The notes beneath the pieces were generated by a model. The model searched no databases, was not told where the DNA came from, and worked only from the letters and a program-made list of their open reading frames with translations. Made by a program: the position numbers and the translations under genes. From contig JAJZBD010000002.1 of assembly GCA_021799085.1 (NCBI GenBank), forward strand, positions 37,355-101,354: a DNA stretch of 64,000 bases, in the 5' to 3' direction. Positions 4,000 to 48,825 of this stretch are shown here, one piece after another. The first letter of the stretch is position 1. Every line of letters begins with the position of its first letter. Source of the stretch: Nanobdellota archaeon. GTDB taxonomy: Archaea > Nanobdellota > Nanobdellia > Parvarchaeales > Parvarchaeaceae.

Positions 4000-4059
4000 G
4001 TTTACACCTCAAATTTATCTTTATTTAAAGACGACAAGAAACCTTAACTAACTAAGAGT

Positions 4060-4133
4060 TGCCCCTGCTGGAATTTGAATCCAGATATCAGGCTCCGCAG
4101 GCCTGCGTTCTATCCAAGTTAGACTACAGGAGC
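4060..4133 (-). tRNA. tRNA-Arg (anticodon GCG)
   Basis: The reverse complement folds as a cloverleaf. The acceptor stem is GCUCCUG/CAGGGGC with one G-U pair. The anticodon stem is CAGGC/GCCUG with loop CUGCGGA, giving anticodon GCG. The T-arm is CUGGA-UUCAAAU-UCCAG, the discriminator is A, and there is no encoded CCA. Confidence 0.7.
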
Positions 4134-4161
4134 ATTTATTCCATATTCTATCTTTTCAACC

Positions 4162-12908: not shown

Positions 12909-12981
12909 GCCCCGATAGTCTAGTGGTCTAGGATAGTGCCCTGTCACGGCATTGACGCGGGTCCGAATCCCGCTCGGGGCG
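12909..12981 (+). tRNA. tRNA-Asp (anticodon GTC)
   Basis: Acceptor stem GCCCCGA/TCGGGGC, anticodon stem GTGCC/GGCAT with loop CTGTCAC (anticodon GTC), T-arm GCGGG-TCCGAAT-CCCGC, discriminator G, no encoded CCA. Confidence 0.8.
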
Positions 12982-13057
12982 CTTGTAGGAAAAAAGTTAG
13001 GTCATTTGCTTAATATTCATTAAAAAAGCTTATATTCTACTAAAGTAATTACAAAAA

Positions 13058-18549: not shown

Positions 18550-20373
18550 ATGGGTAGCGTCGGCCTTGAACGCCTTGTGGGAAGTGGGGAAGAAAGCACT
18601 GTAGACCGTGTCAGGAAAAGCATAATCACCGAGAATGCATTTGACAGTATCTACGGAATAAAGGACGTGAAGGAAAACTTTATGAACGCCCTGGAACAGG
18701 CTTCTTTCATTTCAAGGCAAGGATACACGCCAATATTATTGTTGATAGGCCCGAGCGGTAGCGGTAAAACTGAAATAATAAACAGCGTTGTAAGGGCATA
18801 CAAAAAGTATTCAATGTCCAATGAGATGTTCACATTGAATATAAACGGTGCAAAATGTCCTTACAATGAGAATCCCTATAACCTTTACAGGTCCATTCTG
18901 CCAATAGATCTGGAAGAGAGTGGTTTAAGCAATGTAAATAACCATAAAAGACCGGAGGTATGCTACAAGTGCGAGCATAACTTGGAAAGCGTAATAGAAA
19001 ACGGAAAAATAAGCGCTGAAAAAATAAAATTGGATAGGGTATATCCACAGTCTTCAATAGTTGAATTTGGCGATAGTTTTCTTCTTCCATCTTTTTTAGG
19101 GGTAATAATGAATTCAAACAGGTCTATATTGACGATAAGCGCGGATAAAAGCAGGCTGGAAAATATAAATCCAAAGGTATTTCAGCTTCTTAATAATATC
19201 TACGACAATAATTTCTCTGATCCGATGGGAAATAGGATACCGCTCGACAGTTTGATAATAATGCACAGCAACGAGACTTTTATGGAGCTGGATGAAGAAC
19301 AAAAAAGAGAGTCAAGGCCGCTACTTGAAAGAATAATACGTGTTAATGTAAGGCGCAATCTTTCATACTCCCAGGAAATAAAGCTTGCTGAGGAATCCAA
19401 GATACCCGTCAAGAATAAGGTACCGCATTTTCTGGAGTATCTTGCTAAATTGAATGTTTTGTCGAGAATTGACAGCGATATAATTAGTAACGCAGATGAC
19501 GATAAGCTGGACAATATACTAGAACTGCTTGATTATTATGATTCCTCAAATTTAAAGGAGTTTGAGAAGAAGATGACACAGTCAATGTCAAATTTTCTGA
19601 GCAAACTTCTACCAGATTACAACTCTTACATTTCCAGGAAGGACTTTGAAGAAAGCAAGTATCTAAAGGATGCAGCACATGGCATAATATACGATTCTAA
19701 TGACTATAAAAGCGGATGGACTTCTGGTATCTCTTCTAGATCAATAAGCAGCATACTTGATTTTAATTACACTTCAAATAAGCCAAGAGACTCTCTTTTG
19801 TTTTCGGATATAGCAAGTTATCTGGATAAAAACGAGGAAAAAATGGACAGCGATGTATACCATAAAATAAAAAGCTATATTGATTCAGTCATAACAAACG
19901 ACGTGCGTTTTGAAATAAACTATGCATTGCTTTCTTTCTATTTTGGGGAACACTTCAATGATTATGCAAGCACTATATCAGAGTATATAGACTCGATGAT
20001 TTCAGTAAAACAGTCACAGGAATTCAAGGATACAAACGGCTACCTCGCGGAAGCAGGAAGGTATCTTGATGTAGACGGGCTGAAAAACCAGATAAGTGCG
20101 TTTAAACTTAAAAAAGTACCTTTGGGGATAGTAAACTATACTACAAAATTCGAGGATCTCCTGCATTTTCTGACTTCAACAGGGAAAGACTTCATAAAAA
20201 CAGAAAATAAATTCAAGAACTTTATCGGAGAAGACGGGAAGGACATCGACAGAAACTCTGAATTGTATCCTTACATAAAGAATTTCCTGATTGCAAAGCG
20301 CGGCTATTTCGATGAAGCAGTTGAAGAAGCATTAAAGATATACAAGGAGGGGACGTTGTTTTATGACCAGTGA
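18550..20373 (+). CDS. Second PrkA-like AAA+ protein (paralogous partner)
   Basis: Walker A LLLIGPSGSGKTE; operon position between prkA and yeaH. Confidence 0.5.
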   Translation: MGSVGLERLVGSGEESTVDRVRKSIITENAFDSIYGIKDVKENFMNALEQASFISRQGYTPILLLIGPSGSGKTEIINSVVRAYKKYSMSNEMFTLNINGAKCPYNENPYNLYRSILPIDLEESGLSNVNNHKRPEVCYKCEHNLESVIENGKISAEKIKLDRVYPQSSIVEFGDSFLLPSFLGVIMNSNRSILTISADKSRLENINPKVFQLLNNIYDNNFSDPMGNRIPLDSLIIMHSNETFMELDEEQKRESRPLLERIIRVNVRRNLSYSQEIKLAEESKIPVKNKVPHFLEYLAKLNVLSRIDSDIISNADDDKLDNILELLDYYDSSNLKEFEKKMTQSMSNFLSKLLPDYNSYISRKDFEESKYLKDAAHGIIYDSNDYKSGWTSGISSRSISSILDFNYTSNKPRDSLLFSDIASYLDKNEEKMDSDVYHKIKSYIDSVITNDVRFEINYALLSFYFGEHFNDYASTISEYIDSMISVKQSQEFKDTNGYLAEAGRYLDVDGLKNQISAFKLKKVPLGIVNYTTKFEDLLHFLTSTGKDFIKTENKFKNFIGEDGKDIDRNSELYPYIKNFLIAKRGYFDEAVEEALKIYKEGTLFYDQ

Positions 20374-26798: not shown

Positions 26799-28505
26799 AT
26801 GGGGTCAAACAGGGATTTGGCTGAAAAATTGAATGACATTGCTGATATTCTTGATATCGAAGGTGTTAACTGGGAGCCTAGAGCTTATAGGACAGCAGCT
26901 TTAACTATTTCTGGTTTATCCGAAGACATAAGCAAGGTGTACAAAGAAGGGAGGCTTCTGGAATTGGAGGGTGTTGGTAAATCCATAGCAAATTCAATAA
27001 AGGAATACGTAGAAACAGGGAAAATAAGCAAGTACGAAGAATTAAAAAAGAAATATCCGATAGACTTTGACAGCTTTAGGAAGATAAGGGGGATGGGCCC
27101 AAAAAGAGCTTACACTCTTTATAAGAAGCTCGGTATAAAAACAGTAGCCGACCTTAAAAAAGCATTAGATGAGGAAAAGATACAAAAGCTAGAGGGATTC
27201 GGCAAGAAAAGCGAGGAAGAGCTTAAAAAGAACCTTGAGTCATTTATGAATGTTAAAAACGATAGGCTTCTTCTTGGATATGTAATAGAATATGCAAATT
27301 CATTGTTAGAAAAATTAAGGAAAAGCGGCCTTTTTGAACGAGTGGAAATAGCCGGTTCAATGCGCAGGATGAGGGAAACAATAGGAGATATAGATATACT
27401 TGCAATCTCTGAAAAACCAGAATTGGGGATGGATTTCTTTTCAAAGATGGATGAAGTGAACGGCATTGTAGTTAAGGGCCCTACAAAAACCACTGTGGAA
27501 TTAGGCATAGGTACTACCTGCGACATAAGAGTTCTCCCGAAGGAATCATTCGGCGCCGCAATGCAGTATTTTACAGGCAATAAGGATCACAATGTCAAAT
27601 TAAGGAAGATAGCCATATCAAAAGGTTGGAAACTTAATGAATACGGCCTGTTTAAAGGAAAAGACCCAATAGCTGGTAAAAGTGAAGAAGAGATATACAA
27701 TAAGCTGGGAATGGATTTTATACCGCCAGAATTAAGGGAAAACACTGGGGAAATAGAAGCAGCCCAACAGCATAGGCTTCCCAAAATTGTGAACTACACG
27801 GAAGTTATCGGGGATTTGCATGCTCATACCAAGGACAGCGATGGAATGAATTCACTGGAGGAGATGGCTTCAGCTGCTGAAAAAAGAGGGTTAAAGTACA
27901 TCGCTTTTACAAACCACAGCAAGAGCCTGCCGGTTGCTCATGGCTTAGATGAGAAACGTTTTGCTGAACTAAACAAAAAAATAGATTCATTCAATGAAAA
28001 AAGCAACATAAAGGTATTGAAAGGAGTAGAACTTGAAATATTAAAAGACGGTTCATTGGATTTAAAAAACGATTCTTTAAATGAACTTGATTTTGTCATA
28101 GGGGCAATGCACCAGAATCTTAACATGAGCAGCAAAGAACTGACAAATAGGCTGATAAAGGCAATAAACAGCGGGATGATAAATACTGTTGCGCATCCGA
28201 CTGATAGAGTAATTGGACAAAGAGAAGGATTAAAGCTTGACTTTGACAAAGTAATGGAAGCCTGTGAAAAAAATGATGTTTTACTAGAGATAGACGGTTA
28301 CCCAGAAAGGTCAGATTTACCGTTTGATTTGGTAAAAAAAGCAAAAGATTACTCAATAAAGTTCTCTTTAGGAAGCGATTCCCATAGAACGGAGCACTTG
28401 CGGTTTTTAGACCTTGCTACAGCCATAGCCAGGAGGGGTTGGCTTGAGAAAAAGGATGTTATAAATACATTAGAATATAAAGAGGTATTAAAGCTTAGGA
28501 GATAA
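26799..28505 (+). CDS. polX: Family X DNA polymerase with C-terminal PHP domain
   Basis: N-terminal Pol-beta-like HhH region (GVGKSIANSIKEY, GMGPKRAYTLY), a catalytic DIDIL aspartates region and PHP motifs (GDLHAHTKDSDG ... HPTDR). Confidence 0.85.
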   Translation: MGSNRDLAEKLNDIADILDIEGVNWEPRAYRTAALTISGLSEDISKVYKEGRLLELEGVGKSIANSIKEYVETGKISKYEELKKKYPIDFDSFRKIRGMGPKRAYTLYKKLGIKTVADLKKALDEEKIQKLEGFGKKSEEELKKNLESFMNVKNDRLLLGYVIEYANSLLEKLRKSGLFERVEIAGSMRRMRETIGDIDILAISEKPELGMDFFSKMDEVNGIVVKGPTKTTVELGIGTTCDIRVLPKESFGAAMQYFTGNKDHNVKLRKIAISKGWKLNEYGLFKGKDPIAGKSEEEIYNKLGMDFIPPELRENTGEIEAAQQHRLPKIVNYTEVIGDLHAHTKDSDGMNSLEEMASAAEKRGLKYIAFTNHSKSLPVAHGLDEKRFAELNKKIDSFNEKSNIKVLKGVELEILKDGSLDLKNDSLNELDFVIGAMHQNLNMSSKELTNRLIKAINSGMINTVAHPTDRVIGQREGLKLDFDKVMEACEKNDVLLEIDGYPERSDLPFDLVKKAKDYSIKFSLGSDSHRTEHLRFLDLATAIARRGWLEKKDVINTLEYKEVLKLRR

Positions 28506-28536
28506 TTAATAAATCCTAAGAAATGCTTTATTAAAT

Positions 28537-29232
28537 ATGGTTGAAAGGATCAAAAGCGGTGTAAGTGGATTCGATGCAATAGTGAATGGCGGATTCGTGA
28601 AAAACAGCATAGTAGCAATATATGGTTCGCCCGGTGCCGGGAAAAGTATATTCTGCACGGAATTTCTTAGAGAAGGGCTGAAAAACAATGAAAAGGTTTT
28701 TTATATAAGCATGGAGCAGGACATAGATTCCTTTCTAGAACAATGTGATTCGTTTGGATTCAAGGAATTCAAGGAAAACCTAAATGCGAATTTTGTCTTT
28801 TCAAGGATGAGCGGGCACGATTTCAAGAATTTTCTTTCAATAGAGCTGCCGAAGATACTTGAAACAAGGAAGGAAAAGCATGCTAGGATAGTAATAGACC
28901 CCCTTACTCCATTTCTTTGGGAAGTAAAAGATCCAACTTTACAGAGAAATATTCTTACCGACACGTTTAAAATGCTAAGGGAGTTTGGTACAGCTTTGGT
29001 TACAATAGAGAGATACGGTGACATAAATAGGATGGAATTATCAGAGGACATAGCAATACCTATATACCTTTCAGACATGGTAATCCTTCTTTCAATGATA
29101 TACAACCAGAATTTCTATCAGAAGGCAATTTCCATAGTTAAGATGAGATTTTCTTCGCATAGCACAGGAATGCATCCTTTTGACATAGGAAACAATGGTA
29201 TAAACATCTTTCAGGACCAGCCCGTATTTTAA
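28537..29232 (+). CDS. KaiC/RadA-like single-domain ATPase
   Basis: Walker A GSPGAGKSIF, about 230 aa, RecA-superfamily KaiC-like. Confidence 0.7.
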   Translation: MVERIKSGVSGFDAIVNGGFVKNSIVAIYGSPGAGKSIFCTEFLREGLKNNEKVFYISMEQDIDSFLEQCDSFGFKEFKENLNANFVFSRMSGHDFKNFLSIELPKILETRKEKHARIVIDPLTPFLWEVKDPTLQRNILTDTFKMLREFGTALVTIERYGDINRMELSEDIAIPIYLSDMVILLSMIYNQNFYQKAISIVKMRFSSHSTGMHPFDIGNNGINIFQDQPVF

Positions 29233-29987
29233 TCAATCTCTACAAAAACAGGAGCATGGTCAGAACCTTCTTGCTTTTCAAGTATACCTGCTGCTTTTAC
29301 CCTTTTTTGAAGTTCCTTCGATACAAAGAAATAATCTATCCTCCAACCTATATTGTTTTCCCTTGCGCTTTTGTAAAGGTAAGTCCACCAAGAGTAATTT
29401 CCACTTTTATTGTTGAATAGCCTGAAAGTATCTATGTATCCTTTCTCTATAAGTTCATCTACGAATTTCCTTTCCTTCAGAGTGAAACCTGCGCTTCCTT
29501 CGTTTTGTTTCGGCCTCGCTATGTCTAATTCAGTGTGTGCAACGTTGAAATCTCCCCCTATAACTATCGGTTTTTTCTTTCTCAGGTTTTCCATGAATCT
29601 AAGTATGCTTTTGTTGAATTCTATCTTGTAAGAAAGCCTGCTTAAATCCCTCCTTGAATTCGGGAAATAGCTGTTTATAACAAAGTAGTCCTTGAGTTCA
29701 AGGGTTAATGTCCTCCCTTCGTCATCATACTTTTCATCCCCAATGCCATAGATAACATTAATTGGCTTTTCCTTGCATAGTGCGATAACTCCACTATATC
29801 CTTTTTTTACCTTTGAAGGCATTATATATGAAGAGTAGCCGTCCATTTTTATTAATCCGTTTATCTCTTCGATTTTTGTTTCCTGCAATAAAATAACATC
29901 ATATTCACTAGAGTTTATTACCTTCTGGATTTCATTTTTTCTTGCCACGCTTCTTAGCCCGTTTACATTCCAGGAGAACATTTTCAT
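29229..29987 (-). CDS. xth: Exodeoxyribonuclease III family AP endonuclease
   Basis: MKMFSWNVNGLRS, DVILLQETK and the C-terminal SDHAPV motifs of Xth/APE1. Confidence 0.85.
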   Translation of the reverse strand: MKMFSWNVNGLRSVARKNEIQKVINSSEYDVILLQETKIEEINGLIKMDGYSSYIMPSKVKKGYSGVIALCKEKPINVIYGIGDEKYDDEGRTLTLELKDYFVINSYFPNSRRDLSRLSYKIEFNKSILRFMENLRKKKPIVIGGDFNVAHTELDIARPKQNEGSAGFTLKERKFVDELIEKGYIDTFRLFNNKSGNYSWWTYLYKSARENNIGWRIDYFFVSKELQKRVKAAGILEKQEGSDHAPVFVEID

Positions 29988-30050
29988 AGTCTTTTATATT
30001 ATACACTATATTTATATTGGTATTTCTATAGCTATAATATAAAGAATATT

Positions 30051-33000
30051 ATGAAATCTACTACACCAGCTCATAAGAAGGGATACAAAGTGCACTTCAC
30101 AACGTTTTTGGTTGTGATGACTATACTGTTTATAATATTGTTCTTTTTGAGCACACTTAATGGGTTTTTAGGCTTCAACATTGCAAAATTGCTTGGGTTA
30201 AAGCCAATAACAATAACCGCTCCTAAAAACATAAGTGTTACCCCCCCACCTACAAACATTACAAATAGTACTAAAACTATTCCAGTACCGAAATACACAA
30301 TTTTTTATGAGTCTGGGCTACCATTAGATACTCTTTGGTCTGTTTCATTGCCTTCTGGCACATTGTATTCAAATATAAATTATCTAAATTACTCCTCTTT
30401 TCTCAAAAGTTTTTCATTTAGCGTTAATCAAGTCTTCTTAAACGGCTGTATTTTCTCCCCCTCCCCCGGGTCTGGAAATGTTATTGCTGGAAATTCCGTT
30501 TATATTTCTTTTTCATCGGTATGTAATACTACTTTTGTGAGATATGGTTTACCTAACAAAGTAAATTGGACAGTTCTTTATGGCAATGTTTCTAAGGATG
30601 TGGACACAAATTCAACATCTTTTATTTCTTCCAACGGCAATTTTCCTTTTTCAATCTCAGATTCACACTACGCTGGTTGTCCTTATTACCCATATCCGCA
30701 GTCTGGATACCTTAATGCCGGTTCATCAAAATACATAATTTTTTTTACAACCTGCATTTCTAAATCAAATGCAGTCACATTTTTAGAGAGCGGTTTGCCC
30801 CAGGGGTATAACTGGACCGTAAAGTATGATAATACAACAAATAGCTCAAATTCTACTCGGATAGTTTTTACTCCTACAAATTCAGCCTCTTTGATTCCAC
30901 TATTTAACGTCTCAGTAATTGATAAGAATAACTGCATATTTACTCCAAATCCGAAAAATGGAAATGCTACGGGAGGCCAAACTGTTTTAATAACTTTTAC
31001 TTCATTGTGTAATACTTCGGTAAGTGAAAAGGGTCTGCCAGTGGGTACAAAATGGAATGTGACATTTGACAATAAAACCGTTTACTCGGTTTCTTATTCC
31101 TTAAGAATAAGTACCAACTATACGTTGAGCAATCTAAGCTTAAGGCCTGTAATATTAGGAAATTGCACGTTTAATCCAATTGCAAATTCTAGTAATCCGA
31201 TAGTTGCGGGTTCTTCTGTTCTTATAGAGTTCTCTGCAAGCTGCATAACTTCCTTTTTGGAGAAGAATCTTCCTGTGGGGTTGAACTGGACTGTAAAGTA
31301 TAACAATAAAACATTGCAGTCCACGTCAAGTGTAATAAGATTCAATACTACCAATGTGTTCTCGGGTTTCTCCATTCCAAATGCAACCGAAGGCGGGTGT
31401 GTATATTCCCCTACGCCATCACGCGGGAATTTAACGGCGGGATCCTCCATTACCATATCTTTCTCTCAGACATGTCATACTGTTTTTGTTTCAAAAGGGT
31501 TACCAGCAGGAGTATCCTGGTCAGTTGATTACGACAATCAGACAAGGGACGGTGCATTTAACTCTTCGATAGAATTCCCTTACTATAAAGGAAAAACATT
31601 CTATTATAACGTGTCAATAATAAAAGTTGGAAACTGTGTATTTACTCCCTATCCCAAAAATGGAACTATACTTGCGGGAGAACTTCAACTTATAGCATTT
31701 TCTGGGGAATGCACCACAACTTTTAGTGAAACAGGACTTCCGAATAATACGGAGTGGAATGCCACTTTTGATAATAAAACAAAATTATCAATATCAACCG
31801 GAATCTTTTTCTATACAGTAAATGGTTCTTATCCTTTTTCAATTCCTTCTCAACCGATAAGTAGGGGATGTTATTATGTCCCTTCTCCATCTTCCGGTAG
31901 TATAACGGCCGGTTCGAATGAAACCATAGGATTTACGGATGATTGTACAACGGATTTTATAGACCCTGGTTTGCCGTCTGGGGCAAATTGGACCGTTACA
32001 TTTGCAGGGTTAACAAAGCATTCTATAAATCAAAATGTGTCATTTCTTCTCCCCAGAGGTAAGTACTATTACCAAGTGCCACAGACAAGTTATAATGGCT
32101 GCAACTATGCACCCAATCAAAGTTCCGGATCTACAAGCGTTGGAGAGGATGTACATGTAACATTCAATCTTACAACCTGTGACACGGTTTTTTCAGAAGT
32201 TGGTTTACCAAAAGGAACTTCGTGGCAGGCAATATTTAATGGCACTGCCTCGGATTCTCAGACAAATTCAATCTCTTTTAGCAGCTTTCCAGGAAACTAC
32301 TCATTTTCAGTTGAAAAGATAACCCTAGGAACATGCGTATTTTCACCAAATGAATCTAGTGGATTTATAAATGCAGGTTCTTCCCCGGTCATAGGCTTCA
32401 GCAGTTTATGCTATACAGATTTTTATGAAAAGGATTTACCAGCAAACAGTCTGTGGAGTGTTAATTACAACGGTAAGCCTAACTCTTCAATAGGCGACTT
32501 AATTGCTATAAAGACTAGTTATGGTACTTTTCCTTATTCAATAAGTAATGTTAGCGCAGGTGGCTCATGTTACTTTATACCCCAACCAGTTGCTGGAAAT
32601 GACACAGCTGGGACAGAGGTCACTGTAAATTATATTGAGAAATGTCTGTCAAACTTTCACGAAACTGGTTTATACAGCAATGTACACTGGTCTGTAACTT
32701 ATGATGGGGATACCGTTTCAACTTACGGAGATAACCTGTCCATACTGAATTTACCCGGAAATTATTCATATGATGTACCAACTGCCTTTGGAAGGGGCTG
32801 CACTTTTACATCTCTTAACTCCAGCGGTAATCTTGTATCGGGCAAAAATGCTAGCGTTTATTTCTCCCCAAGTTCATGCATTTCTAATATTACTGAAACT
32901 GGCCTGCCGAAAAATGTAAATTGGGGCGTTTCTATAGATAATGTAACTAATTACTCTACAGAAAAATCAATTTTAGTTACAACAAATCCTGGGAATTACT

Positions 33001-36000
33001 CTGTGTATATTCATTCTGTAAAGATAAATGGTTGTGTTTTCTCCGCAAGTTATAATAATCTAATGATGGCAGGTTCTACCATTATAGTTCATTTTAGTGC
33101 CGCATGTCAAACCATTTTTACTGAAACAGGTTTACCCAATGGTACAGAATGGAAAGTTAATGATTCTTTTCCTTCTTATTTTGATTATAATTTACCAATA
33201 CCTGGAGAGGTATACTCTTATACATTGTACTCTTCAACAACAAATAGGATAATAGTTAATTCTTCAAACTCATCAGCTAATCCGTATAAAGTAGAAAGCA
33301 TTCCTATAAATAAGTTTTGTGCATATGATCCGCAACCGTCATCGGGATCAATAACTCCTGGCGACAATCTCTCTATACTGTTTAAGAATGATTGCATAAC
33401 TAGCTTCAAGGAAATGGGTCTTCCAAGTGGGACTACCTGGTATGTATCCTTCAATAATATAAATGCTTCCTCCAATTCCAGTCAAATTTCATTTTTAACA
33501 AATGCGGGAGCATACAACTTTAAAGTATTCACAGCAGAAAATCACGGTTGTTTCTACACTTCAAATGTAACCCAAGGTACACTTAATTCCTCATCTGTTT
33601 TGAACATAAAATTTACAGGTAAGTTCTGTCTTACTATTTTTAACGAGACTGGCTTACCAAGTAATACAAAATGGAATGTAACTTTTAACAGTACATTAAA
33701 AGCATCCAATACATCAAAAATAACATTTAATGGTTCTTTCTCAAATACCTCCTATAATTATTATATACAGCCAAAAAGCATTTCAGCCCAGGGCTGTTAT
33801 ATAAATTTGACTTCACCAAGCGGAACTGTTAAAGTGGGCTCATATGTGAATGTTACATATCTAAACCGTTGCAAAACCACTTTTAATGAGACGGGCCTAC
33901 CGAATAGCACAAAGTGGAGCGTGGTTTTTGACGGGATATCAGGAAGTTCTTCAAATATTTCAGTAGTCATATACGCTCTGCCTGGAAATCATTCATATGA
34001 ACCTTCAATTATAAACATAGGGGGAGGGTGTTTTTATTATCCAAAACCAAATTCTTCATACTTAATATCTGGAGAATCTGCCACTATCTCATACACGAAA
34101 GAATGTTTGTCCACATTTTCTCAAAACGGTTTGCCTTCTGGTGCTTCATGGTCCGTTGAGTATGATAATTTTGTCAACTCTTCTAGGTTATCAGATATAA
34201 ATTTTGTTACCGCACCCGGCAATTTCTCGTTTTCTTTGAATACAGTTGATTATGCCTATTGCTCCTTTTTGCCTTCTCCGGCTTCTGGTTATCTTGTCGC
34301 AGGCGGAAATGTAAGTATATCCTTTATTGAAAATACCTGTAATACTACCTTCATAGAAACCGGCTTACCTTTTAATACGCAGTGGAAACTTACGTTTGAT
34401 GGAATAACAGAGACTCCTTCTAACAATAATGTTACAATAACTACACCCGCAGGAATTTTTACAGCTAAGTTCTATCCAATAAATTTGTCTAACTGTATAT
34501 TTTCTCCGCAGCCGCTGTCTAGCAGCACTGCGGCTGGAGGCCATTTTACCGTTCATTTTGCAGCATCTTGTACTACTACTTTTAATGAGACGGGCCTGCC
34601 GAATAATACTTACTGGTTTGTTACATATAACGGTACTACAGTTTCATCAAATAGCACTATTATAAGAGTAACTTCAATAAATGGCACTTATGCGTATAGC
34701 TTGCCGTTTATAGGCAATTCCAGTTGCTCATACCGGCCGAATCCCTCCTCTGGAAATGCAATAGCTGGTTCAAAAATAGGCATAGATTACAGCGGAGGGT
34801 GCACAACAGTATTCTATGAAAATGGGCTGCCTCCCGGCAGTGAATGGAATTTAACATATGATAATAAGAGCATAAACTCTACAAGTACCAGTATCCAGTT
34901 TGTAACCCCCCCAGGCAGTTTTAAGTACACTGTCGAAAACTTAACTTTAAATAACTGCTTATATGTTGCAAAGAATGGCTCTTCAGAACTTGCTGCAGGG
35001 TCCACATTTTATCTGGTATTTAATCAGACAAGGTGCTACACTACATTTACGGAAAGCAATCTTCCTTCAAATACAAAATGGACATTAACTTATGATGATG
35101 TAAATTATAGCTCGAATAAAACTTCATTAGCGCTGTCAACTATTCCAGGTACTTTCAATTTTACTGGGTATAGTGTAACAGAAGATGGGTGTATATTTAC
35201 TCCAAATCCAAGTAGCGGTCATATTGCTGCAGGCTCTTCTTTACTTCTTTCTTTTTCCTCTTCCTGTGTAACTTCCTTTAATGAAACCGGCCTTTCTAAG
35301 GGGATAACTTGGAGTGTTGAGTTTGACGGCATAACCAATTACTCTTCTAATACTTCTCTGTACATAGACTCAATTTATGGTAATTTCTCATTTTCAGTCC
35401 CTAGGATACAAGTATCAGCGAATTGTTACCTTACTCCTGATCCAAGCAAAGGTTACCTAATTGCAGGCTCAAGCACCGTTATTAACTTTTCCAATTATTG
35501 TTATTCCGAGTTTATAGAAACGGGATTACCTTCGGGCATTAGTTGGTCCGTAAAATACAATAATTTAACTAATTCATCTTCTTTATCAGATATAAGTTTC
35601 AATGTTGTCAGTGGGAATTATTCATTTTCCATACCATCGGTTGATTATCATAATTGTTATTTCGTTTCCAATGAATCAAGTGGATATGCAAAGGCAGGGG
35701 TTTATACCTATTTAAAGTTTACAGAAAATTATTGCATTTCTAATTTCACAGAATCCGGCTTGCCGAGTAATACAAAATGGAATGTAACATTTTCAAATAA
35801 GTCTAATGCATCTACTAAACGGTACATTTCTTTAAACACCACTAAAGGTCTGTACAATTTTACAGTGCATCCGGTAAATATAGGAGGTTGTAAATACATC
35901 TCTACTCCCGCAATCGGAAGTGTGGCCGCAGGTTCAGAGATAAATGTAAGTTTTTCGGTTTCATTTTGCATAACTACTTTTGATGAAACCGGCTTACCAT

Positions 36001-39000
36001 TAAGAGATAATTGGTCAGTTACATATGATAGTATAAGAAATTCTTCCGTTTCTAGCAATATAACCTTCAATATTTCTACTTTGTCTTCTTTTGCGTTTTC
36101 TGTAGAGGCAGAAAACCAATCTCAGTGTGATTTTAGTCCTGTTCCATCCTCAGGTAGCGTTACTTCCGGCTCTACAGAAGTGATAAATTTCAATAGCGTC
36201 TGTCATACCTACTTTAAAGAGAATGGGCTACCTTCAAGTTATACTTGGATAGTGAATTTAAACGGGAAAAATGATTCTTCTAAATCAAATATTATAGAAT
36301 TTACAACTTCCTATAATGATAATTACACCTTCAATATTTATCCATCCGTAGATTATAACTCGGGGTTCTTGTCAAATATTTCCAAAGGTTACATTGCTAC
36401 TGGGTCAAATATTACAGTTGCATTTTCAAATGATACAGCTGCTTATAAGAAACCGGTAATAATGCCTGTGTCCTTTTATAATAATCAGACAGAATCCACT
36501 CCTCAACCCTCTCAACAGATGCTTATTTTCAATTCCTCAAAATATTCTAAATATGAAAACTCCAAATTAACAAATATAATGTTTGCATATCAGAATGGAA
36601 CAGCTATTCCTTCTTGGTTAGAATCCGGCAATTCAAATACGTCAAATGACACTGTATACTGGCTAAAAATTAAAAGCATCCCAGCGGAAAGTGGTATAAC
36701 TATCAACATGGTATTCAATCAAACCTTCCTTTCTTATTCTAATAATTTTTACACCGGTACAGCAGGAGAGGCTCCACAGCTTTCCTCAACATACGGTGAG
36801 TACAACAATATAGCCAATGTGATGAATTCAGGTTTATTGTACCAGTTTTACCAGTTAAATGGAGGAGGTATACAGTCACAGGCAAGTGTTTACCAAGCAC
36901 AGTTAACACCAAATTCGGTTTTCTCCTATGGTAGTTTGACAGCGACAGCAGGATCAACATTGTATTTATCTGCATTAACAGGCAGTTCTCAGGATGTTGA
37001 TGGAACAACAGAGCCAAACGTGATAATTAATTATCAGTACAGTTATTCCGGAGGGAGTGCATTTCCAAATCCGCCTATAACCAATCCGCAGTATGTAATA
37101 ATGAAGGCAATAGGCTTTGCAGTAGTCAACTCCCCAACAACAATATATGGATTAAGTGATGATGGCATGGGAATTGGTTATTCTAATTCCGGCGGGGCAT
37201 TAATTCCTTGGCTTGGAGGGTCTTCTACTTCAAACAATCCAAATAACGTAATCAATTCTTGGGTATCGGAATCTGCTACTCAACATAGCGGCACTATAAC
37301 TACAGACGGCAGTTACAGGCTAGAAATAGACTATACAAATCAAGGAGGACCAGGGGAGGATGCGGTCTGGTCAAATAATTCAATAGATTACTATTCTCCC
37401 TCACAGCCTCCAAATGGTGTAATGCCATACAGTATTTCAAATGCAACATTTATAACTACCTATTTCAAGGAAACGGGATTACCTTTAGATTATAATTGGA
37501 ATGTAAACTATGATACTATATCTAAATCTTCATCAATGTCCGAGATAAACTTTACTACTGAAAGAGGAAATTACTCTTATTCCGTGCCAGTTCTTCGTAA
37601 TTCTTCTTCAAGTTTGGATTGTACTACAGCTTATACTCCAAAGCCTAGCTCTGGCTATTTAATAGCAGGAGAGAATATTACTATTTCATATTCTAACAGC
37701 ACTTATTGTATAACTAAGTTCTATGAAAACGGTTTGCCTGCAAATTCAATATTTTATGTAAATTACGATGGGATAAACAAAAGTATTTCTTTATTTGGGG
37801 ATGGACTTTTGTTATCTATCCAGAATACCCAGTCTGTTCCTACTCCAGCGCCATTCCAGCAGATGGTAAACTTTTCGTATTCAGGCTACAAGCAGTACAT
37901 AAATCTAAGCAGCGGTCACCAGTTCCAGAACGTAGAGTTCATAAACACTACAACTGGAAAGGTAATAGACAGTTGGCTTGAAAGCTACACTTCCAGCTAT
38001 GCCATCTTCTGGATAAAGTTGCCAAATGGAATACCTGCAGACACTACTATAAAGGATGTAGCTATGCTGTTTGTGAATAATGACACTAATTTATTTAACA
38101 CTAATACCACTGGCGAGGCTCCTCAGCTTTCTCCAACGTATGCAGAATACGACAATGGTGCAAACGTATTTATAAAATACTGGAATTTTAAGGGGAGTTC
38201 GGCGCCAGCAGGATTTGCTACATCTGTAGATAATGGTGGCAGTGTTTCTTACAATAATGGGTTATACTTAACTCTTCCTAACAATAACAATGGTGCAACT
38301 GCAGCAAGTGTTTATGTTCAAACAGATCTAAGTAATCCTTTCTTCGCCTTTACTGGTACTGGAGCGGGAGCTTATGCATATAGAACTAATATAGGAATAT
38401 CTGAAAGCAGCAGTAACTCAATAGAAGGTACTTGTGCGATAATGTATTATCCTTCATATTCATATATACCTGGGGGAGAATGCATATCTAATGGTTTATA
38501 CTCAATAACCAGTTCAGGTTATTCACAAATTAATAGTTTGTCTTATTCTTCTGGTCCATTAATAGGTGTTGGTTTCAATTCAAATACGGTACTTCTAGTT
38601 AATAATGGATTTAATTTGTATACTGATAGTTCAATCCCTTTTAGTTCTACTAATTATGTGTGGTTAGGAACCTCCGCATATTATTCAAAAACGTCAGGTT
38701 CGAATGTTCTTAATTATTTAGCATTATCAGCTTATCCTCCAAACGGGATTATGCCAAGTGTAACGTCTGTTCTTAAGACATCTGGGATTAATACTTCTAA
38801 TGGCATATTCTTAGCTAAGCCCTCCTCCAATGTTGACTGTTCAAATAGTGATATTAATCTTACGGCAGGCAGTACATACACTTTCACAAATTGGAATTGT
38901 ACTACTGAATTCAATGCAACGAATATTAATCAAAATGTTACGTTCTCTTTAGATTATAATGGTTTGAATAAGTCCGGCACTACTGGAAAACCCATAAATA

Positions 39001-42000
39001 TAAATTTCCTATCCTCGGGTAATGGCAATTATCTTTATAACGCAAAGATAAGCAATCAATGCAGTGCAAGCGGTTATGCATATGTGGGGGAGAGTTCAAA
39101 CATAAGTAATTGGAACTGCTCTTATCTATTTTATGAGAAAAATTTACCTACAGGAACGAAGTGGTATGTCAGTTTTAACGGGTTTAACGAAAGTTCTACT
39201 AATAATAAGATAGCGTTCTTTGATTCTCCAGGTAATTATTCTTATAAAATAAATGAAATACCTATAAAAGCAAACAACGGTTTGTCCTGTGTAAATACCT
39301 TTTATCCCTCCCCTTCTTCAGGGTATATATCTACTTTGAAAAATAATATAACTATAACCTTTTCAAACAATACGCAATGTACTACTTCCTTTTTACAATT
39401 TGGATTACCTAATAATAATTGGAAAGTATTTTATAATAATAATGGATATAACTACACTTCAAAGTATTCTCTGATAAATATAAGCATTGACAACGCTCAA
39501 TCTACCTCAACTCCAGCGCCATTCCAGCAGATGGTAAACTTTTCGTATTCAGGCTACAAGCAGTACATAAATCTAAGCAGCGGTCACCAGTTCCAGAACG
39601 TAGAGTTCATAAACACTACAACTGGAAAGGTAATAGACAGTTGGCTTGAAAGCTACACTTCCAGCTATGCCATCTTCTGGATAAAGTTGCCAAATGGAAT
39701 ACCTGCAGACACTACTATAAAGGATGTAGCTATGCTGTTTGTGAATAATGACACTAATTTATTTAACACTAATACCACTGGCGAGGCTCCTCAGCTTTCT
39801 CCAACTTATGCGGAGTATGATGATGGTGCAAATGTGTTTAATTATTATGAGAACTTCGCAGGTTCAGGATTGCCAGCGGGCTGGCAGGAGCTTACCTCCT
39901 CTGGAGATACATACACTTGGGACAATGGAATCACTTTTACAAATAATGGCCATAGTGATTATGTTTCGATAGGAACAACGTCTGCTGTCGCTTCTGCAGG
40001 TATTTTAGAATTAGGGGTGGCAAGTGGCTCCAATGCTAGGCCGACAATAGAATTAGCAACTACAGATATCCAAATAGAGGGTGGTCAACCAATATATGAA
40101 TACAAAGAGGGTTATGGTCAATCCTATGGTATGTATTCAGGCGATATGCAACTAGAAACATTGACTACTTCATCTACGTCTACAGACAATGCTAAGACAG
40201 CTTATAATGCTCCACTAATTGAAGGAATTAGCTGGACAACAACAGGTTCAGAACTCCTGGAGATAATACCAAACTATGTTTATAATGACGCGGAGATAGC
40301 ATCCGAAGCAAGTACTTCTGTGTCATTGTCCACCCCTTTATATGTTATGTTGGGCCAAGCTGCGTCTGGTTCTAGTTCAGATACTGGGGGCTTCACAGCA
40401 AATTGGCTTCGCGTTCGTGCCTATCCTCCAAACGGAGTAATGCCAACCGTAAAAATAAATAAGTCAACAGTAACTGACTTGAATTTTAATTTTCTAACCT
40501 CCCCAGGAAGCTTTACAGCGAATGCCAATACTTCTTTAGATTGCAGACCAGAAGAGGATACAGTAAAAGCAGGGACGACTTACTTCTTTTCAAATTGGAA
40601 TTGTACTACTACATTTAATGAAAGCGCATTGCCAAAAGGTAATACTTGGTGGGTTGATTACGATGGAGTAAACGATAGTAATAAAACTGGAAATGTTATA
40701 AGAGTAAACTTTAACTCTTCCAATTTTGGAATTTATACTTATTCCGTAGGTTCAAATATAAGTTGTTATTCTAAAGGCGTTGGAGATTTAGGGACATATA
40801 ATAATATCTCAAATTGGTTATGTAATAAGCGATTTACAGAGGAAGGGCTTCCAAGTGGAACTAACTGGAGTGTTGACTATGATAATAAGTTAAGCTATTC
40901 GACTTCCGGTGTAATATCTTTTTCCAATAATTTTGGAAATTACAGTTATAACATAAGCAATTTAACTTTATCTAATGGAATTTATGTGCCAAATTCCTCT
41001 TCAGGGCATACAATCTCATTTGGTAACTTAATTATAAATTTCTCAAAACACGGCCTAGTTACTCCTCAAAGTATTTACAAATACGCAGTGTTGAATATCA
41101 CCAACTCTCAAACTTCTGCTACTAAGCAGCCATTCCAACAGATGATTAATTTAACGATAAACTCATTAAACAGCAAATACATAAACCAGACTGGCAAATA
41201 TTCCTTCCAAAACGTTGAGTTCTTTAACACTACAACTGGCAAGGTAATAGATTCATGGCTTGAGAACTACACTTCAAAGTACGCCATATTCTGGATCAAA
41301 TTACCAAACGGCATACCTGCAAATACCACTATACAAGACGTGGCAATAGGCTTTGCATCAAATGATACAAATCTGTTCAATATCAATAGTACTGGCGAAG
41401 CACCTCAGCTATCCGATACTTATGCAGAATACGATGATGGTGTTAATATATTTAATTTTTACGATAATTTTGCGGGAACTAGTTTAAATACTACAAAGTG
41501 GAGTAGCTTTGGTAGTTCAGGAACAAGTGGTTCTACCTCAGACATTATAGTGAGTAATAAATTAACTTTAACAGGCGGCGGAACAGGGGGGCTTTCTCAT
41601 CAAACTTGGATTAAAACCTCTTTAAGTTCTGGAAGTTTTGATGGGTCTGTAGTTGCAGATGTTTATGAAAATAGCCCCTCAACTGATACAACGTTTAGAT
41701 GGGGATTTACAAATTCAAATCCAACTTACTTTGGAGGTTCATCTACACAATCTTTTGGCGAACAGATATATGATAATGGAAATTGGTATGCAAATACAGA
41801 TGCTGGCTCATCAGGAACGCAAAATGAAATAGGTTCTTGGAGTTCTTTAGCAAACACTTCCGTTATATGGAGTATAGCTGCTACGGACACGCAAATTTTA
41901 TTTTATAATCCAAATACCTATTCAACATTAGGAAGTTCAGGACAAACCATAACAACTACTATTCCAGCATATTCCTCATCAATTGGTTTATCTTTAACTA

Positions 42001-47491: not shown

Positions 47492-48697
47492 CTACTCCAA
47501 GCTTACGCATGGAGCTTCTCGCTTCAACGAACTGACTTGCTTCAGTTTATGAAGTAGAGGTCTATTCTCCACTAGCATACTGGCAGGTTCCCTACCAAAT
47601 AACGCTTTTATGATTATATTTCTTGCTGCGTTTATATCTCTGTCTATTTCTATTTTACAATATGGACATTTGAATATCTTTACCGATAAATCCAAATGCT
47701 CTATGTTTTTCTCCTCGCAGACACTACAAGTTTGTGTAGTGTCTTTTGGATTTACTTTTACTAAAATCCTGCCAGCACTTTCAGCCTTGTAGGATAAATA
47801 TGAAATAAACAAGCTCCAGGCAGCATCATATATACTTTTAGATAGATGGTGATTTCTGGCCATACCTTGGATATTTAGGTTTTCAACTGCGATAAAACCA
47901 TAGTTTTTCACGTATTCTGTGGATAATTTGTGTGCAAAATCCTTCCTTTGGTTCTGTAGGTGCTCATAAGCTTTGTTTAGTCTTAGCTTTATTTTGTTCC
48001 TTCTGTTGGATCCTTTCTTTTTCCTTGCCAATTGCCTTTGAATCAAAGCTATCTTATCTGCCGTCTTCTGCAGAAATCTAGGATTTTCCACAAACCTGTA
48101 ATTGCTGTCAGCAAGGAAATGCGTTACTCCCACGTCTATACCAACTGCTTTTTCAGAGGTATTTGGCTTAACTTTTATCTGATTCTTTTCTTGATGCGGA
48201 TTTTCAACTTGGATGCAGGCATACCACTTGCCTGCCCTCTTGCTTATTATTATTCCCTTGACATTGCCTTTTATTTCCCTGTGAAACTCCGCTTCTACTT
48301 TTCCTACTTTTGAAAGGATTATTTTCTTGTTTCCTATGATAAAACCGCTTTGATTGTAGAATATTGATTTGAAATGGTCATAACTTTTGAACCTTAGCTT
48401 TCCTATTTTGTAGCCTTTCCTCTTTCTTCCTGCTAATGTATGGATGTTGTTCCATAATTGCTGATTTACCATCTGCAATGTCTTTGAGTAGACGTTTTTC
48501 AATTCAGGCTTGTCTTCTTTCAGCTTTACTAAAAGCTTTTGGGTGTCATATCTCTTTAGCTTTTTCCCTTCGTCTTTTGCCTTGTTCAGTTCCTCTAATA
48601 ATTTGTTGTAAGTCCATTGGCATAATTCCAATTGTATATTCAGTTCCGTTTCTACGACTTTGCTTGGATACAACCTAAATTTTTTATAACTCCTCAT
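47492..48697 (-). CDS. tnpB: TnpB (IS605 OrfB family RNA-guided nuclease ancestor of Cas12)
   Basis: 401 aa with an N-terminal helical domain, a central RuvC-like region and a C-terminal zinc finger (CSVCEEKN ... CPYCKIEIDRDINAARNI). Confidence 0.85.
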   Translation of the reverse strand: MRSYKKFRLYPSKVVETELNIQLELCQWTYNKLLEELNKAKDEGKKLKRYDTQKLLVKLKEDKPELKNVYSKTLQMVNQQLWNNIHTLAGRKRKGYKIGKLRFKSYDHFKSIFYNQSGFIIGNKKIILSKVGKVEAEFHREIKGNVKGIIISKRAGKWYACIQVENPHQEKNQIKVKPNTSEKAVGIDVGVTHFLADSNYRFVENPRFLQKTADKIALIQRQLARKKKGSNRRNKIKLRLNKAYEHLQNQRKDFAHKLSTEYVKNYGFIAVENLNIQGMARNHHLSKSIYDAAWSLFISYLSYKAESAGRILVKVNPKDTTQTCSVCEEKNIEHLDLSVKIFKCPYCKIEIDRDINAARNIIIKALFGREPASMLVENRPLLHKLKQVSSLKREAPCVSLE

Positions 48698-48762
48698 ATT
48701 TTATCTACTCTTTTTATGTTTTATACTTTTACCGTCTTTCATCCCCTATCTCACAAAAGGGG
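47492..48762 (-). mobile_element. IS605/IS1341-type element carrying solo tnpB (no tnpA)
   Basis: The TnpB ORF plus a candidate left-end subterminal hairpin CCCCT-N10-AGGGG at 48743-48762, upstream of the tnpB start. No tnpA was found nearby. Confidence 0.55.
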
Positions 48763-48825
48763 AATTCTCGGCGGACTTGTTAAAAAAAGAAATGCTTTTA
48801 TAAGATTAGTCTTCTTTTAAAGAGC

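What the first reader, a model, noticed from the sequence alone, without database searches (positions are those of the whole stretch)
37843..39805. 295-bp perfect direct repeats 1668 bp apart inside the giant gene (concerted evolution / assembly hazard)
Segments 37843-38137 and 39511-39805 are 100% identical at the DNA level. A third copy (42699-42790 plus a second block about 42821-42866) is a mosaic of perfect and diverged stretches, and a fourth (about 41110-41340) is only about 75% identical. The mosaic identity pattern is what gene conversion between intragenic repeats produces. It implies ongoing homogenisation or recent duplication. It also means the true copy number could be collapsed or expanded in a short-read assembly, making this a phase-variable, length-variable surface protein candidate.
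Basis: seen in the sequence. Interest (0 to 1): 0.55.

Follow-up and report, generated by a model that had tools for sequence, protein, structure and literature searches.

The report
Gene-conversion tract in giant archaeal adhesin
Two 296-base stretches inside a 4,512-residue surface-protein gene of a tiny symbiotic (DPANN/Parvarchaeota) archaeon are identical because one copy recently overwrote the other, and comparison with relatives shows the gene keeps this "constant" domain uniform while swapping the neighbouring sugar-binding-like domains.

Summary
Positions 37842-38137 and 39510-39805 are a perfect 296-nt direct repeat, 1668 nt (556 codons) apart and in frame. It is the only long repeat in the 64-kb window.

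The repeat encodes the DUF2341 domain of modules 1 and 2, out of five DUF2341 + lectin-like modules at the C-terminus of an intact 4,512-aa ORF (30051-43589) from a Parvarchaeota-type DPANN archaeon.

The cause is intragenic gene conversion, not recent duplication:
- The lectin-like domains just downstream of the two copies are only about 29% identical in protein.
- A collinear ortholog (L003, about 91% nt identity) has the same five modules and its own 152-nt perfect M1=M2 stretch with the same left edge.
- All 11 window-versus-L003 differences in those 152 nt are shared by both paralogs within each lineage.
- In L003 the second half of M2 is a different sequence type.

The assembly hazard is real: contigs from two other assemblies stop inside this domain, one ending in a 127-nt repeat. 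Copy-number collapse is not supported, because spacing is identical in L003. Phase variation is not supported either.

Unexpectedly, the lectin-like cassettes of modules 3 and 4 are wholly replaced between the two close lineages, with breakpoints at conserved motifs.

The parts
30051..43589 (+). Giant ORF (4,512 aa). It has an N-terminal hydrophobic anchor, a stalk of beta-sandwich repeats, and five C-terminal DUF2341 + lectin-like modules.
   Evidence: ORF list and translation. Pfam DUF2341 scores 74.4 bits for the whole protein. dN/dS against ortholog L003 is 0.06-0.16. There are 212 N-x-S/T sequons.
30288..36431 (+). Stalk of about 24-27 repeats of ~78 aa each, with consensus C-x-T-x-F-x-E-x-G-L-P-x4-W ... 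C-x-F-x-P-x-P-S-S-G. These repeats are NOT homogenised at the DNA level.
   Evidence: Repeat family D2 is only 61-80% identical over 49 nt. Alignment A3. AF2 model with pLDDT 96.7, all-beta. No significant PDB fold match and no Pfam or NCBIfam hit.
36495..36821 (+). Module 0 DUF2341 domain, a diverged copy about 52% nt identical to the others.
37842..38137 (+). Perfect repeat, copy 1 (DUF2341 of module 1). Inferred donor of the conversion.
   Evidence: Exact match. It is 91% identical throughout to its ortholog in L003, so it is the undisturbed copy.
38169..38765 (+). Variable lectin-like cassette L1. It ends at the conserved ...AYPPNG(V/I)MP motif (nt 38730).
   Evidence: 28% aa identity to L2 and 95% to the L003 ortholog. 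The AF2 model of the module matches L-type lectins.
39510..39805 (+). Perfect repeat, copy 2 (DUF2341 of module 2). Inferred recipient: its second half differs in type from its ortholog in L003.
   Evidence: 39653-39802 is only 73% identical to L003 M2 but about 90% identical to L003 M1.
39837..40454 (+). Variable lectin-like cassette L2.
   Evidence: 91% aa identity to the L003 ortholog and 74% to a Micrarchaeota protein in L047.
41118..41450 (+). Module 3 DUF2341, the least homogenised of copies 1-4 (65-69% nt identity to every other copy, including its ortholog).
41451..42080 (+). Variable cassette L3. It is replaced relative to L003, with breakpoints at about 41460-41490 and about 42040.
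   Evidence: Nucleotide identity to L003 is 38% here against 85-92% in the flanks. Only the last 21 aa align. It is 77% aa identical to a JGI metagenome protein, P0126/L082.
42690..43019 (+). Module 4 DUF2341, a mosaic. Blocks 42699-42790, 42816-42865 and 42870-42889 are perfect against M1/M2. The second half is of another type, shared with L003 M2 and M4.
43020..43586 (+). Variable cassette L4. It is replaced relative to L003, with breakpoints at about 43070 and about 43540.
   Evidence: 43% nt and 31% aa identity to L003 at this position.

Best explanation
The two identical 296-nt segments are a recent non-reciprocal recombination (gene-conversion) tract. The DUF2341-coding block of module 1 overwrote the homologous block of module 2 in the same gene.

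The tract fills almost the whole stretch over which the two modules are alignable. That stretch runs from the start of ...PAPFQQM... to within the GEAPQLSPTY motif.

Shown:
- The tract exists and has sharp edges.
- The flanks are ancient.
- The same pair of modules is homogenised independently in a sister lineage.
- Other copies (M4 here; M2/M4 and M3 in L003) carry shorter mosaic tracts, so conversion is recurrent.

Inferred:
- Direction was M1 to M2.
- The event is young. There are 0 differences in 296 nt, giving a 95% upper bound of about 1% divergence, against 9% between the lineages.
- The gene encodes a membrane-anchored, heavily N-glycosylated fibre whose distal end displays five lectin-like binding modules, probably for attachment to a host cell.
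- The homogenised DUF2341 block on the 5' side and the AYPPNG(V/I)MP-coding motif on the 3' side bracket the variable cassettes. They are the places where cassette replacement occurs.
For: Tract and flanks:
- Perfect 296-nt identity with abrupt edges.
- The downstream domains of the two modules are 28-29% identical in protein and about 40% in nucleotides.
- A run of 119 of 136 polymorphic sites is concordant, permutation p <= 1e-4.

Ortholog comparison:
- L003 is collinear, at about 91% nt identity. It has five modules at the same residues.
- L003 has its own 152-nt perfect M1=M2 repeat starting at the homologous position.
- In those 152 nt, 11 of 11 between-lineage differences are shared by both paralogs within each lineage.
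- Outgroup states suggest derived, paralog-shared changes in both lineages.
- The second half of window M2 is the M1 type, whereas L003 M2 carries the M4 type.
- An independent assembly of the L003 lineage (L001, 99.86% identical) agrees over the M1 copy, the only copy it covers.

Realness of the gene:
- The ORF is under purifying selection (dN/dS 0.06-0.16), and dS between lineages is 0.33, so identical synonymous sites cannot be due to protein-level constraint.

Fold and context:
- DUF2341 by Pfam.
- L-type-lectin-like fold hits.
- Published context: DUF2341 in predicted archaeal pilus adhesins (PMC4858521) and LamG-like expansions in ARMAN archaea (PMC5498576).
Against: - The assembly method and read data of the window are unknown. 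A de Bruijn assembler could have merged two nearly identical copies into exactly identical ones, so true identity might be about 98-100% rather than 100%.
- The direction of transfer rests on parsimony with a single sister lineage.
- Polarisation with the ~73%-identical outgroup is noisy, because that lineage is itself homogenised.
- The adhesin/lectin function is inferred from a medium-confidence model (mean pLDDT 67.7; the lectin-like part is mostly below 70) with TM-scores of only 0.35-0.57. No sugar-binding residues were checked.
Confidence: 0.85

Rival explanations
1. Recent tandem duplication of a module, meaning the two copies have not yet had time to diverge.
For: The spacing is in frame and regular (1668 nt), and the modules share one architecture.
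Against: Identity ends abruptly after 296 nt. The remaining 1372 nt of the unit are at background identity, and the lectin-like domains are 28% identical in protein. Both modules are present, with orthologous flanks at 91-95% aa identity, in L003.
Confidence: 0.02
2. Assembly artefact. The assembler threaded one consensus unitig through two similar but non-identical copies, or collapsed or expanded the number of 1668-nt units.
For: The repeat (296 nt) exceeds common k-mer sizes. Two other assemblies break in this domain (L002 at 101 nt into the repeat; L004 ends in a 127-nt exact repeat). The source of the window is unknown.
Against: Module number and spacing are the same as in L003, a different lineage assembled independently. 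L003 itself has a 152-nt perfect M1=M2 stretch carrying lineage-specific substitutions, so near-identity of these two copies is biological. L002 matches the first ~100 nt of copy 1 apart from one mismatch at its chimeric junction. At most, a few real differences could have been smoothed away.
Confidence: 0.08
3. Nucleotide-level constraint. The 296 nt would carry a functional RNA or DNA element that keeps both copies identical without recombination.
For: GC of the tract is 42% against 36.5% for the gene.
Against: The same segment differs by 9% between lineages (15 synonymous and 10 non-synonymous codon changes), and the paralogs change together. There is no Rfam match in the gene.
Confidence: 0.02
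4. Diversity-generating retroelement: the repeats would be a template/variable repeat pair.
For: Such retroelements are, from my own knowledge, known in DPANN archaea and target lectin-like folds.
Against: Mismatches between copies are not adenine-specific in any pair. The identical part is the conserved domain, not the variable one. None of the 11 proteins scanned against Pfam here is a reverse transcriptase, but most ORFs in the window were not scanned.
Confidence: 0.01

Closest known systems
Concerted evolution of intragenic repeats in large bacterial surface adhesins (for example near-identical DNA repeats in Rib/alpha-C, Aap/SasG and the Marinomonas ice-binding adhesin). This comparison is from my own knowledge.
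   Same: Non-reciprocal recombination keeps repeated domain-coding segments of one surface-protein gene identical at synonymous sites. Such repeats also break short-read assemblies.
   Different: Here the ~27 stalk repeats are not homogenised (61-80% identity over short motifs). Only one domain type, DUF2341, is homogenised. Its copies are 1.6 kb apart rather than tandem, and no copy-number change is seen between close lineages.
Segmental gene-conversion systems for surface variation (Neisseria pilE/pilS, Borrelia vlsE, Mycoplasma MgPa repeats). This comparison is from my own knowledge.
   Same: Mosaic tracts with sharp edges, a constant-plus-variable architecture, and conserved sequence blocks acting as recombination anchors.
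   Different: There are no silent cassettes in the window. All copies are expressed, in-frame parts of one ORF. The tract found here homogenises the constant part instead of diversifying the variable part. No promoter or switch element was found.
Polymorphic toxin / Rhs / CdiA architecture, in which a conserved motif demarcates a swappable C-terminal cassette. This comparison is from my own knowledge.
   Same: Variable cassettes are replaced exactly between conserved motifs (...GANVF after GEAPQLS on the left, AYPPNG(V/I)MP on the right). The same cassette type also sits at different positions in different lineages.
   Different: The cassettes are lectin-like beta-sandwiches, not toxins. There are several cassettes per protein and no immunity gene.
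DUF2341 (MJ1470-type) proteins of archaeal type IV pilus loci, and LamG-like proteins expanded in ARMAN/DPANN archaea (PMC4858521; PMC5498576).
   Same: The same DUF2341 domain followed by a jelly-roll, lectin-like domain. Stand-alone homologs of about 450 aa (for example ARMAN-5 BJBARM5_0529, P0082) consist of one such module.
   Different: The stand-alone proteins begin with a pilin-like ...QSALEYMMTYGWAIL... N-terminus. The giant protein does not. It carries five modules on a long repeat stalk.

Membership tests
DUF2341 (Pfam PF10102) domain proteins | Match to the Pfam model above its gathering score (23.4 bits) | tested here: met
   The whole protein scores 74.4 bits. Scanned separately, modules 0, 2, 3 and 4 score 24.2, 24.8, 28.2 and 40.3 bits. 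Module 1 alone scores 21.4 bits, just below the cut-off.
Concanavalin-A-like / LamG / L-type lectin fold | Jelly-roll beta-sandwich similar to solved lectin structures | tested here: inconclusive
   The AF2 model of module 1 has mean pLDDT 67.7, with the lectin-like part mostly below 70. Foldseek top hits are VIP36, ERGIC-53 and legume lectins with probability 1.0, but TM-scores are 0.35-0.57. Some homologs carry precomputed PF13385. Pfam does not call it in the window protein.
Intragenic gene conversion / concerted evolution | An identity tract significantly longer than flanking divergence predicts, with sharp boundaries | tested here: met
   296-nt perfect tract with flanks at background identity. 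Permutation p <= 1e-4.
Intragenic gene conversion / concerted evolution | Paralogs within a genome share substitutions that distinguish them from their orthologs in a sister genome | tested here: met
   11 of 11 differences in the first 152 nt follow the pattern W1=W2 and T1=T2, with W differing from T. Identity matrix.
Intragenic gene conversion / concerted evolution | Different parts of one copy have different nearest relatives (mosaicism) | tested here: met
   In L003, M2 matches M1 in its first half and M4 in its second half. Window M4 matches M1/M2 in its first ~190 nt and the other type thereafter.
Phase-variable (contingency) surface gene | A slippage-prone simple-sequence repeat in the promoter or 5' coding region, or an invertible element | tested here: not met
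   No di- to heptanucleotide repeats. The longest homopolymers are C7, T8 and G6. No inverted repeats of at least 35 nt in the window.
Length-variable repeat protein | Module copy number differs between related genomes | tested here: inconclusive
   The window and L003 (~91% identity) both have five modules at the same positions. The ~73%-identical lineage (L004 + L081) has six, but its gene is split over two contigs.
Diversity-generating retroelement target | Template and variable repeats differing at adenines, plus a reverse transcriptase nearby | tested here: not met
   Mismatch spectra are not adenine-biased. None of the 11 proteins scanned (the giant protein and ten neighbouring ORFs) is a reverse transcriptase, though the window was not fully scanned.
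Archaeal type IV pilin-like proteins (class III signal peptide) | An N-terminal ...(K/R)(G/A/S)Q-x-x-x-E... motif followed by a hydrophobic helix. The motif is recalled from my own knowledge. | tested here: not met
   The giant protein starts MKSTTPAHKKGYKVHFTTFLVVMTILFIILFF..., without the motif. Stand-alone homologs and the Micrarchaeum A_DKE multi-module ORF do show ...QSALEYMMTYGWAIL.... This was checked by eye only.

The most novel reading that the evidence does not exclude
The gene may be a built-in cassette-exchange platform.

The proposal: recombination keeps the DUF2341 block and the AYPPNG motif uniform, and they serve as homology anchors. These anchors let whole lectin-like specificity domains be swapped between module positions, between genes, and possibly between distant DPANN lineages. 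That would give an obligate episymbiont a fast way to change which host surface it binds.

Observations that fit this reading:
- Three different cassettes occupy position 3 in three related lineages that have orthologous linkers.
- One cassette type sits at position 4 in one lineage and at position 3 in another.
- Cassettes are 73-77% identical to proteins of Nanobdella and Micrarchaeota, while the adjoining DUF2341 is only about 40% identical.
Probability: 0.3. Interest if true: 0.75.

Novelty: new variant of a known kind. Interest (0 to 1): 0.5.

Why it matters
How DPANN archaea recognise and attach to their hosts is largely unknown. This locus offers a concrete candidate: a very long, glycosylated fibre tipped with five different lectin-like modules.

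Its evolution separates cleanly into two parts. A recombination-homogenised framework domain stays uniform, and the binding cassettes are replaced wholesale between lineages only about 9% apart. That pattern is testable with closed genomes and with binding assays.

There is also a practical point. Perfect repeats in DUF2341 domains fragment this gene family in short-read MAGs, so such proteins are probably under-counted and mis-annotated as "partial".

Tried and rejected
- A homolog search with the whole 4,512-aa protein timed out.
- The JGI metagenome scan found no relative closer than 53% aa identity, so no extra strains could be added.
- The window's own protein is not among the homolog hits. 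Only fragments of close relatives were found: L001, L002 and L003.
- A PDB sequence search with the module profile gave nothing meaningful.
- NCBIfam gave no hits for the stalk, the modules or a stand-alone homolog.
- The fold search for the 78-aa stalk repeat gave no hit below E = 0.03.
- Literature searches for a described gene-conversion or cassette system in Parvarchaeota or Microcaldus found nothing relevant. The Parvarchaeales genomics paper does not discuss surface proteins.
- Considered and rejected: recent duplication, a diversity-generating retroelement, a nucleotide-level functional element, and phase variation by simple-sequence repeats. Reasons are given under rivals and membership tests.
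- The stretch 45070-47492 that lacks long ORFs simply holds six ORFs of 101-149 aa.
Full report
OBSERVATION

Exact matching shows a perfect 296-nt direct repeat, 37842-38137 = 39510-39805. It is one base longer than reported. The start-to-start spacing is 1668 nt, and both copies begin on the first base of a codon of ORF 30051-43589. Ungapped identity in 30-nt bins is 30/30 across the tract. It drops to 26, 21 and 13 on the right and to background at once on the left. It is the only long high-identity repeat in the 64-kb window, and no inverted repeats of at least 35 nt exist.

The other copies of the domain compare with copy 1 as follows:
- Copy at 42.7 kb: a mosaic. Perfect blocks of 92 nt (42699-42790), 50 nt (42816-42865) and 20 nt (42870-42889) are interrupted by a 25-nt patch with 9 mismatches. 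A region of 55-65% identity follows.
- Copy at 41.1 kb: 75.6% identical over 41205-42442's first 238 nt (41205-41442), about 52% over its first 60 nt, and 69% overall.
- Copy at 36495-36821: a fifth, more diverged copy of about 52% identity that was not in the finding.

WHAT THE GENE IS

The ORF encodes 4,512 aa. Its composition is 14% Ser, 11% Asn and 10% Thr, with 212 N-x-S/T sequons.

The parts, from N- to C-terminus:
- A hydrophobic N-terminal segment.
- About 24-27 repeats of ~78 aa, each with two conserved cysteines and a GLPxxxxW motif. An AlphaFold model of one repeat is a confident all-beta sandwich (pLDDT 96.7). It has no significant match in the PDB and no Pfam or NCBIfam family.
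- A C-terminal third made of five modules. Each is a DUF2341 domain (Pfam PF10102), then a ~200-aa variable domain, then a conserved ...AYPPNG(V/I)MP motif.

A model of module 1 is confident for DUF2341 (pLDDT about 90) and weak for the variable part (mean 67.7). Its best PDB fold matches are L-type lectins (VIP36, ERGIC-53, legume lectins), with TM-scores of 0.35-0.57.

Homologs come from Candidatus Parvarchaeota, Micrarchaeota, Marsarchaeota and Thermoplasmatales metagenome genomes. Many are ~450-aa single-module proteins with a pilin-like N-terminus...QSALEYMMTYGWAIL.... The complete genome of Micrarchaeum sp. A_DKE has a multi-module ORF of at least 3,900 aa.

Published context:
- DUF2341 proteins are predicted adhesins of archaeal type IV pili (PMC4858521).
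- DUF2341 occurs in giant proteins of Patescibacteria (PMC11809585).
- LamG-like proteins are expanded, and sit on genomic islands, in an ARMAN archaeon (PMC5498576).

My inference is a membrane-anchored, glycosylated fibre with a distal array of five lectin-like binding modules.

WHY THE REPEAT IS IDENTICAL

The variable domains directly downstream of the two identical DUF2341 segments are only 28-29% identical in protein and about 40% in nucleotides. A recent duplication of the 1668-nt unit is therefore excluded.

The decisive evidence is an ortholog. L003 is contig JAKAAG010000004.1, from a MAG labelled Nanoarchaeota archaeon TL2-4.bin18. It is collinear with window 27803-41481 at 90.7% identity with four gap openings. 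It resumes downstream of the gene at 92%. Its ORF (4,540 aa) has five modules at the same residue positions. dS between the two lineages is 0.33 and dN/dS is 0.06-0.16. The gene is therefore real and constrained, and synonymous sites are free to diverge.

In L003 the M1 and M2 DUF2341 segments are only 83% identical overall. Their first 152 nt are nonetheless perfect, starting at the position homologous to 37842/39510. Within those 152 nt the window and L003 differ at 11 sites. At all 11 sites both paralogs of a lineage share the same base. With the ~73%-identical lineage as a rough outgroup, derived paralog-shared states appear in both lineages.

In the second half, window M2 carries the same sequence type as M1 of both lineages. 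L003 M2 carries the type found in M4 of both lineages. The simplest history is recurrent M1/M2 conversion in both lineages, plus a very recent M1-to-M2 tract in the window lineage that covers the whole homologous block.

Permutation tests on polymorphic sites give p <= 1e-4 for window M1-M2, window M1/M2-M4 and L003 M1-M2. Zero differences in 296 nt bounds the divergence of the two copies below about 1% (95%). The same segment differs by 9.1% between lineages.

ASSEMBLY QUESTIONS

The hazard is real:
- L002 is a MEGAHIT contig (ENA ERZ27237460) that is 99.95% identical to window 33789-37942. It stops about 100 nt into copy 1. It then continues as the reverse complement of 37450-37555, which looks like an artefactual tail.
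- In MAG FK_Sedi_A_Bin.204 the orthologous gene is split over two contigs. Contig JAMCSQ010000028 ends inside the M1 DUF2341. Its last 127 nt are identical to the M3 DUF2341 on contig JAMCSQ010000044, which then continues into the syntenic dCTP deaminase and endonuclease III genes. A break of exactly 127 nt is what I would expect from SPAdes at its usual largest k-mer, which is my own knowledge.
- Several other contigs end inside DUF2341, and another begins with a 127-nt repeat.

Against collapse or expansion in the window itself: spacing and module number equal those of L003. A second assembly of the L003 lineage (L001, 99.86% identical) agrees with L003 across the M1 copy, which is the only copy L001 spans.

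I cannot exclude that an assembler smoothed a few true differences between the two copies.

CLAIMS NOT SUPPORTED

Phase variation has no support. There are no simple-sequence repeats, only C7, T8 and G6 runs, and no invertible element.

Length variation is absent between the two close lineages. It appears only in the more distant one, which has six modules.

A diversity-generating retroelement is excluded by the non-adenine-biased mismatch spectra.

BEYOND THE FINDING

Between the window and L003, the variable cassettes of modules 0-2 are 91-98% identical. Those of modules 3 and 4 are replaced: 38% and 43% nt identity, and at most 33% aa identity. The breakpoints lie just after the ...GANVF end of DUF2341 (about 41460-41490 and about 43070) and at the AYPPNG motif (about 42040 and about 43540).

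The third lineage has yet another cassette at position 3. That cassette is the type found at position 4 in L003 (72% aa identity). The third lineage also has unrelated cassettes at positions 0 and 2, even though its linkers are orthologous.

Cassette types recur in distant DPANN lineages:
- L003 cassette 3 is 77% aa identical to a protein of Nanobdella aerobiophila MJ1.
- L003 cassette 4 is 73% identical to a Micrarchaeaceae protein.
- Window cassette 2 is 74% identical to a Micrarchaeota protein.
- Window cassette 3 is 77% identical to a JGI metagenome protein.

The adjoining DUF2341 in these proteins is only about 40% identical. Within a genome the picture is reversed: DUF2341 copies are 65-100% identical and cassettes are 25-33% identical.

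So the "constant" domain evolves in concert within genomes. The "variable" domains are long-lived types that are moved or exchanged. Whether that involves lateral transfer is unresolved.

Synonymous divergence roughly doubles from about 39650 onward (dS 0.54-0.75 against 0.33). This suggests the 3' part of the gene has a separate recombination history.

VERDICT

The gene-conversion reading is well supported, and the assembly-hazard warning is justified. The copy-number and phase-variation inferences are not supported.

The phenomenon itself is a known kind, namely concerted evolution of repeats in a surface-protein gene. The setting is a new variant: a DPANN lectin-array fibre with a homogenised framework domain and wholesale cassette replacement at conserved motifs. 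It is moderately interesting as a candidate host-recognition determinant.

Noticed in passing
window 41451-42080 and 43020-43586 (compare L003 13646-14269 and 15209-15868): The lectin-like cassettes of modules 3 and 4 are completely replaced between the window and its ~91%-identical ortholog. Breakpoints lie at the end of DUF2341 and at the AYPPNG motif. A third lineage (L081) has a third cassette at position 3, and that cassette is the type found at position 4 in L003.
   Followed up: yes
L075 10403-11026 (Nanobdella aerobiophila MJ1), L027 10355-11008, L047 10355-10972, L082 101-780: Individual cassette types are 73-77% aa identical to proteins of distant DPANN lineages, while the adjoining DUF2341 is only about 40% identical. 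This could reflect lateral exchange of cassettes or strong type-specific constraint.
   Followed up: partly
window 39650-43589: Synonymous divergence from the L003 ortholog is about twice that of the 5' 9.5 kb of the same gene (dS 0.54-0.75 against 0.33). This suggests a separate recombination history for the 3' part.
   Followed up: partly
window 47487-48783: A 1,297-bp element carrying only a TnpB / IS605-OrfB-type gene (ORF 47492-48697, minus strand) is absent from the ortholog. L003 goes from position 19767 to 19770 across the site, so this is a recent insertion.
   Followed up: partly
window 30288-36431: The ~78-aa two-cysteine stalk repeat folds confidently (pLDDT 96.7) as a beta-sandwich, yet it has no Pfam or NCBIfam family and no PDB fold match below E = 0.03. 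It may be an undescribed domain family. Unlike DUF2341, its ~27 copies are not homogenised.
   Followed up: partly
window 26799-29987 and 43605-45070: The giant gene lies between DNA-repair or nucleotide-metabolism genes: PolX-type polymerase, KaiC/RadA-like ATPase, ExoIII-like nuclease, dCTP deaminase and endonuclease III. The downstream pair is syntenic in the ~73%-identical lineage (L081).
   Followed up: no
L002 4145-4250: The MEGAHIT contig that stops inside the repeat continues as the reverse complement of window 37450-37555. This is probably an assembly foldback rather than a real inversion.
   Followed up: partly
L004 10124-10250 = L081 1122-1248; L083 1-127 = 1006-1132: Contigs of other MAGs end or begin with repeats of exactly 127 nt inside DUF2341 domains. 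This fits de Bruijn graph breaks at k = 127. Genes of this family are probably fragmented systematically in short-read MAGs.
   Followed up: partly
L064 572-12349 (Candidatus Micrarchaeum sp. A_DKE, complete genome): An ORF of at least 3,900 aa with seven or more DUF2341 modules and a pilin-like N-terminus (...VVEFVLTYGWAILLIA). Giant multi-module DUF2341 proteins therefore also exist in a closed Micrarchaeota genome.
   Followed up: no
window 4058-4134 (-) and 12909-12982 (+): tRNA-Arg(GCG) and tRNA-Asp(GTC) are the only Rfam or ARAGORN hits in the window.
   Followed up: no
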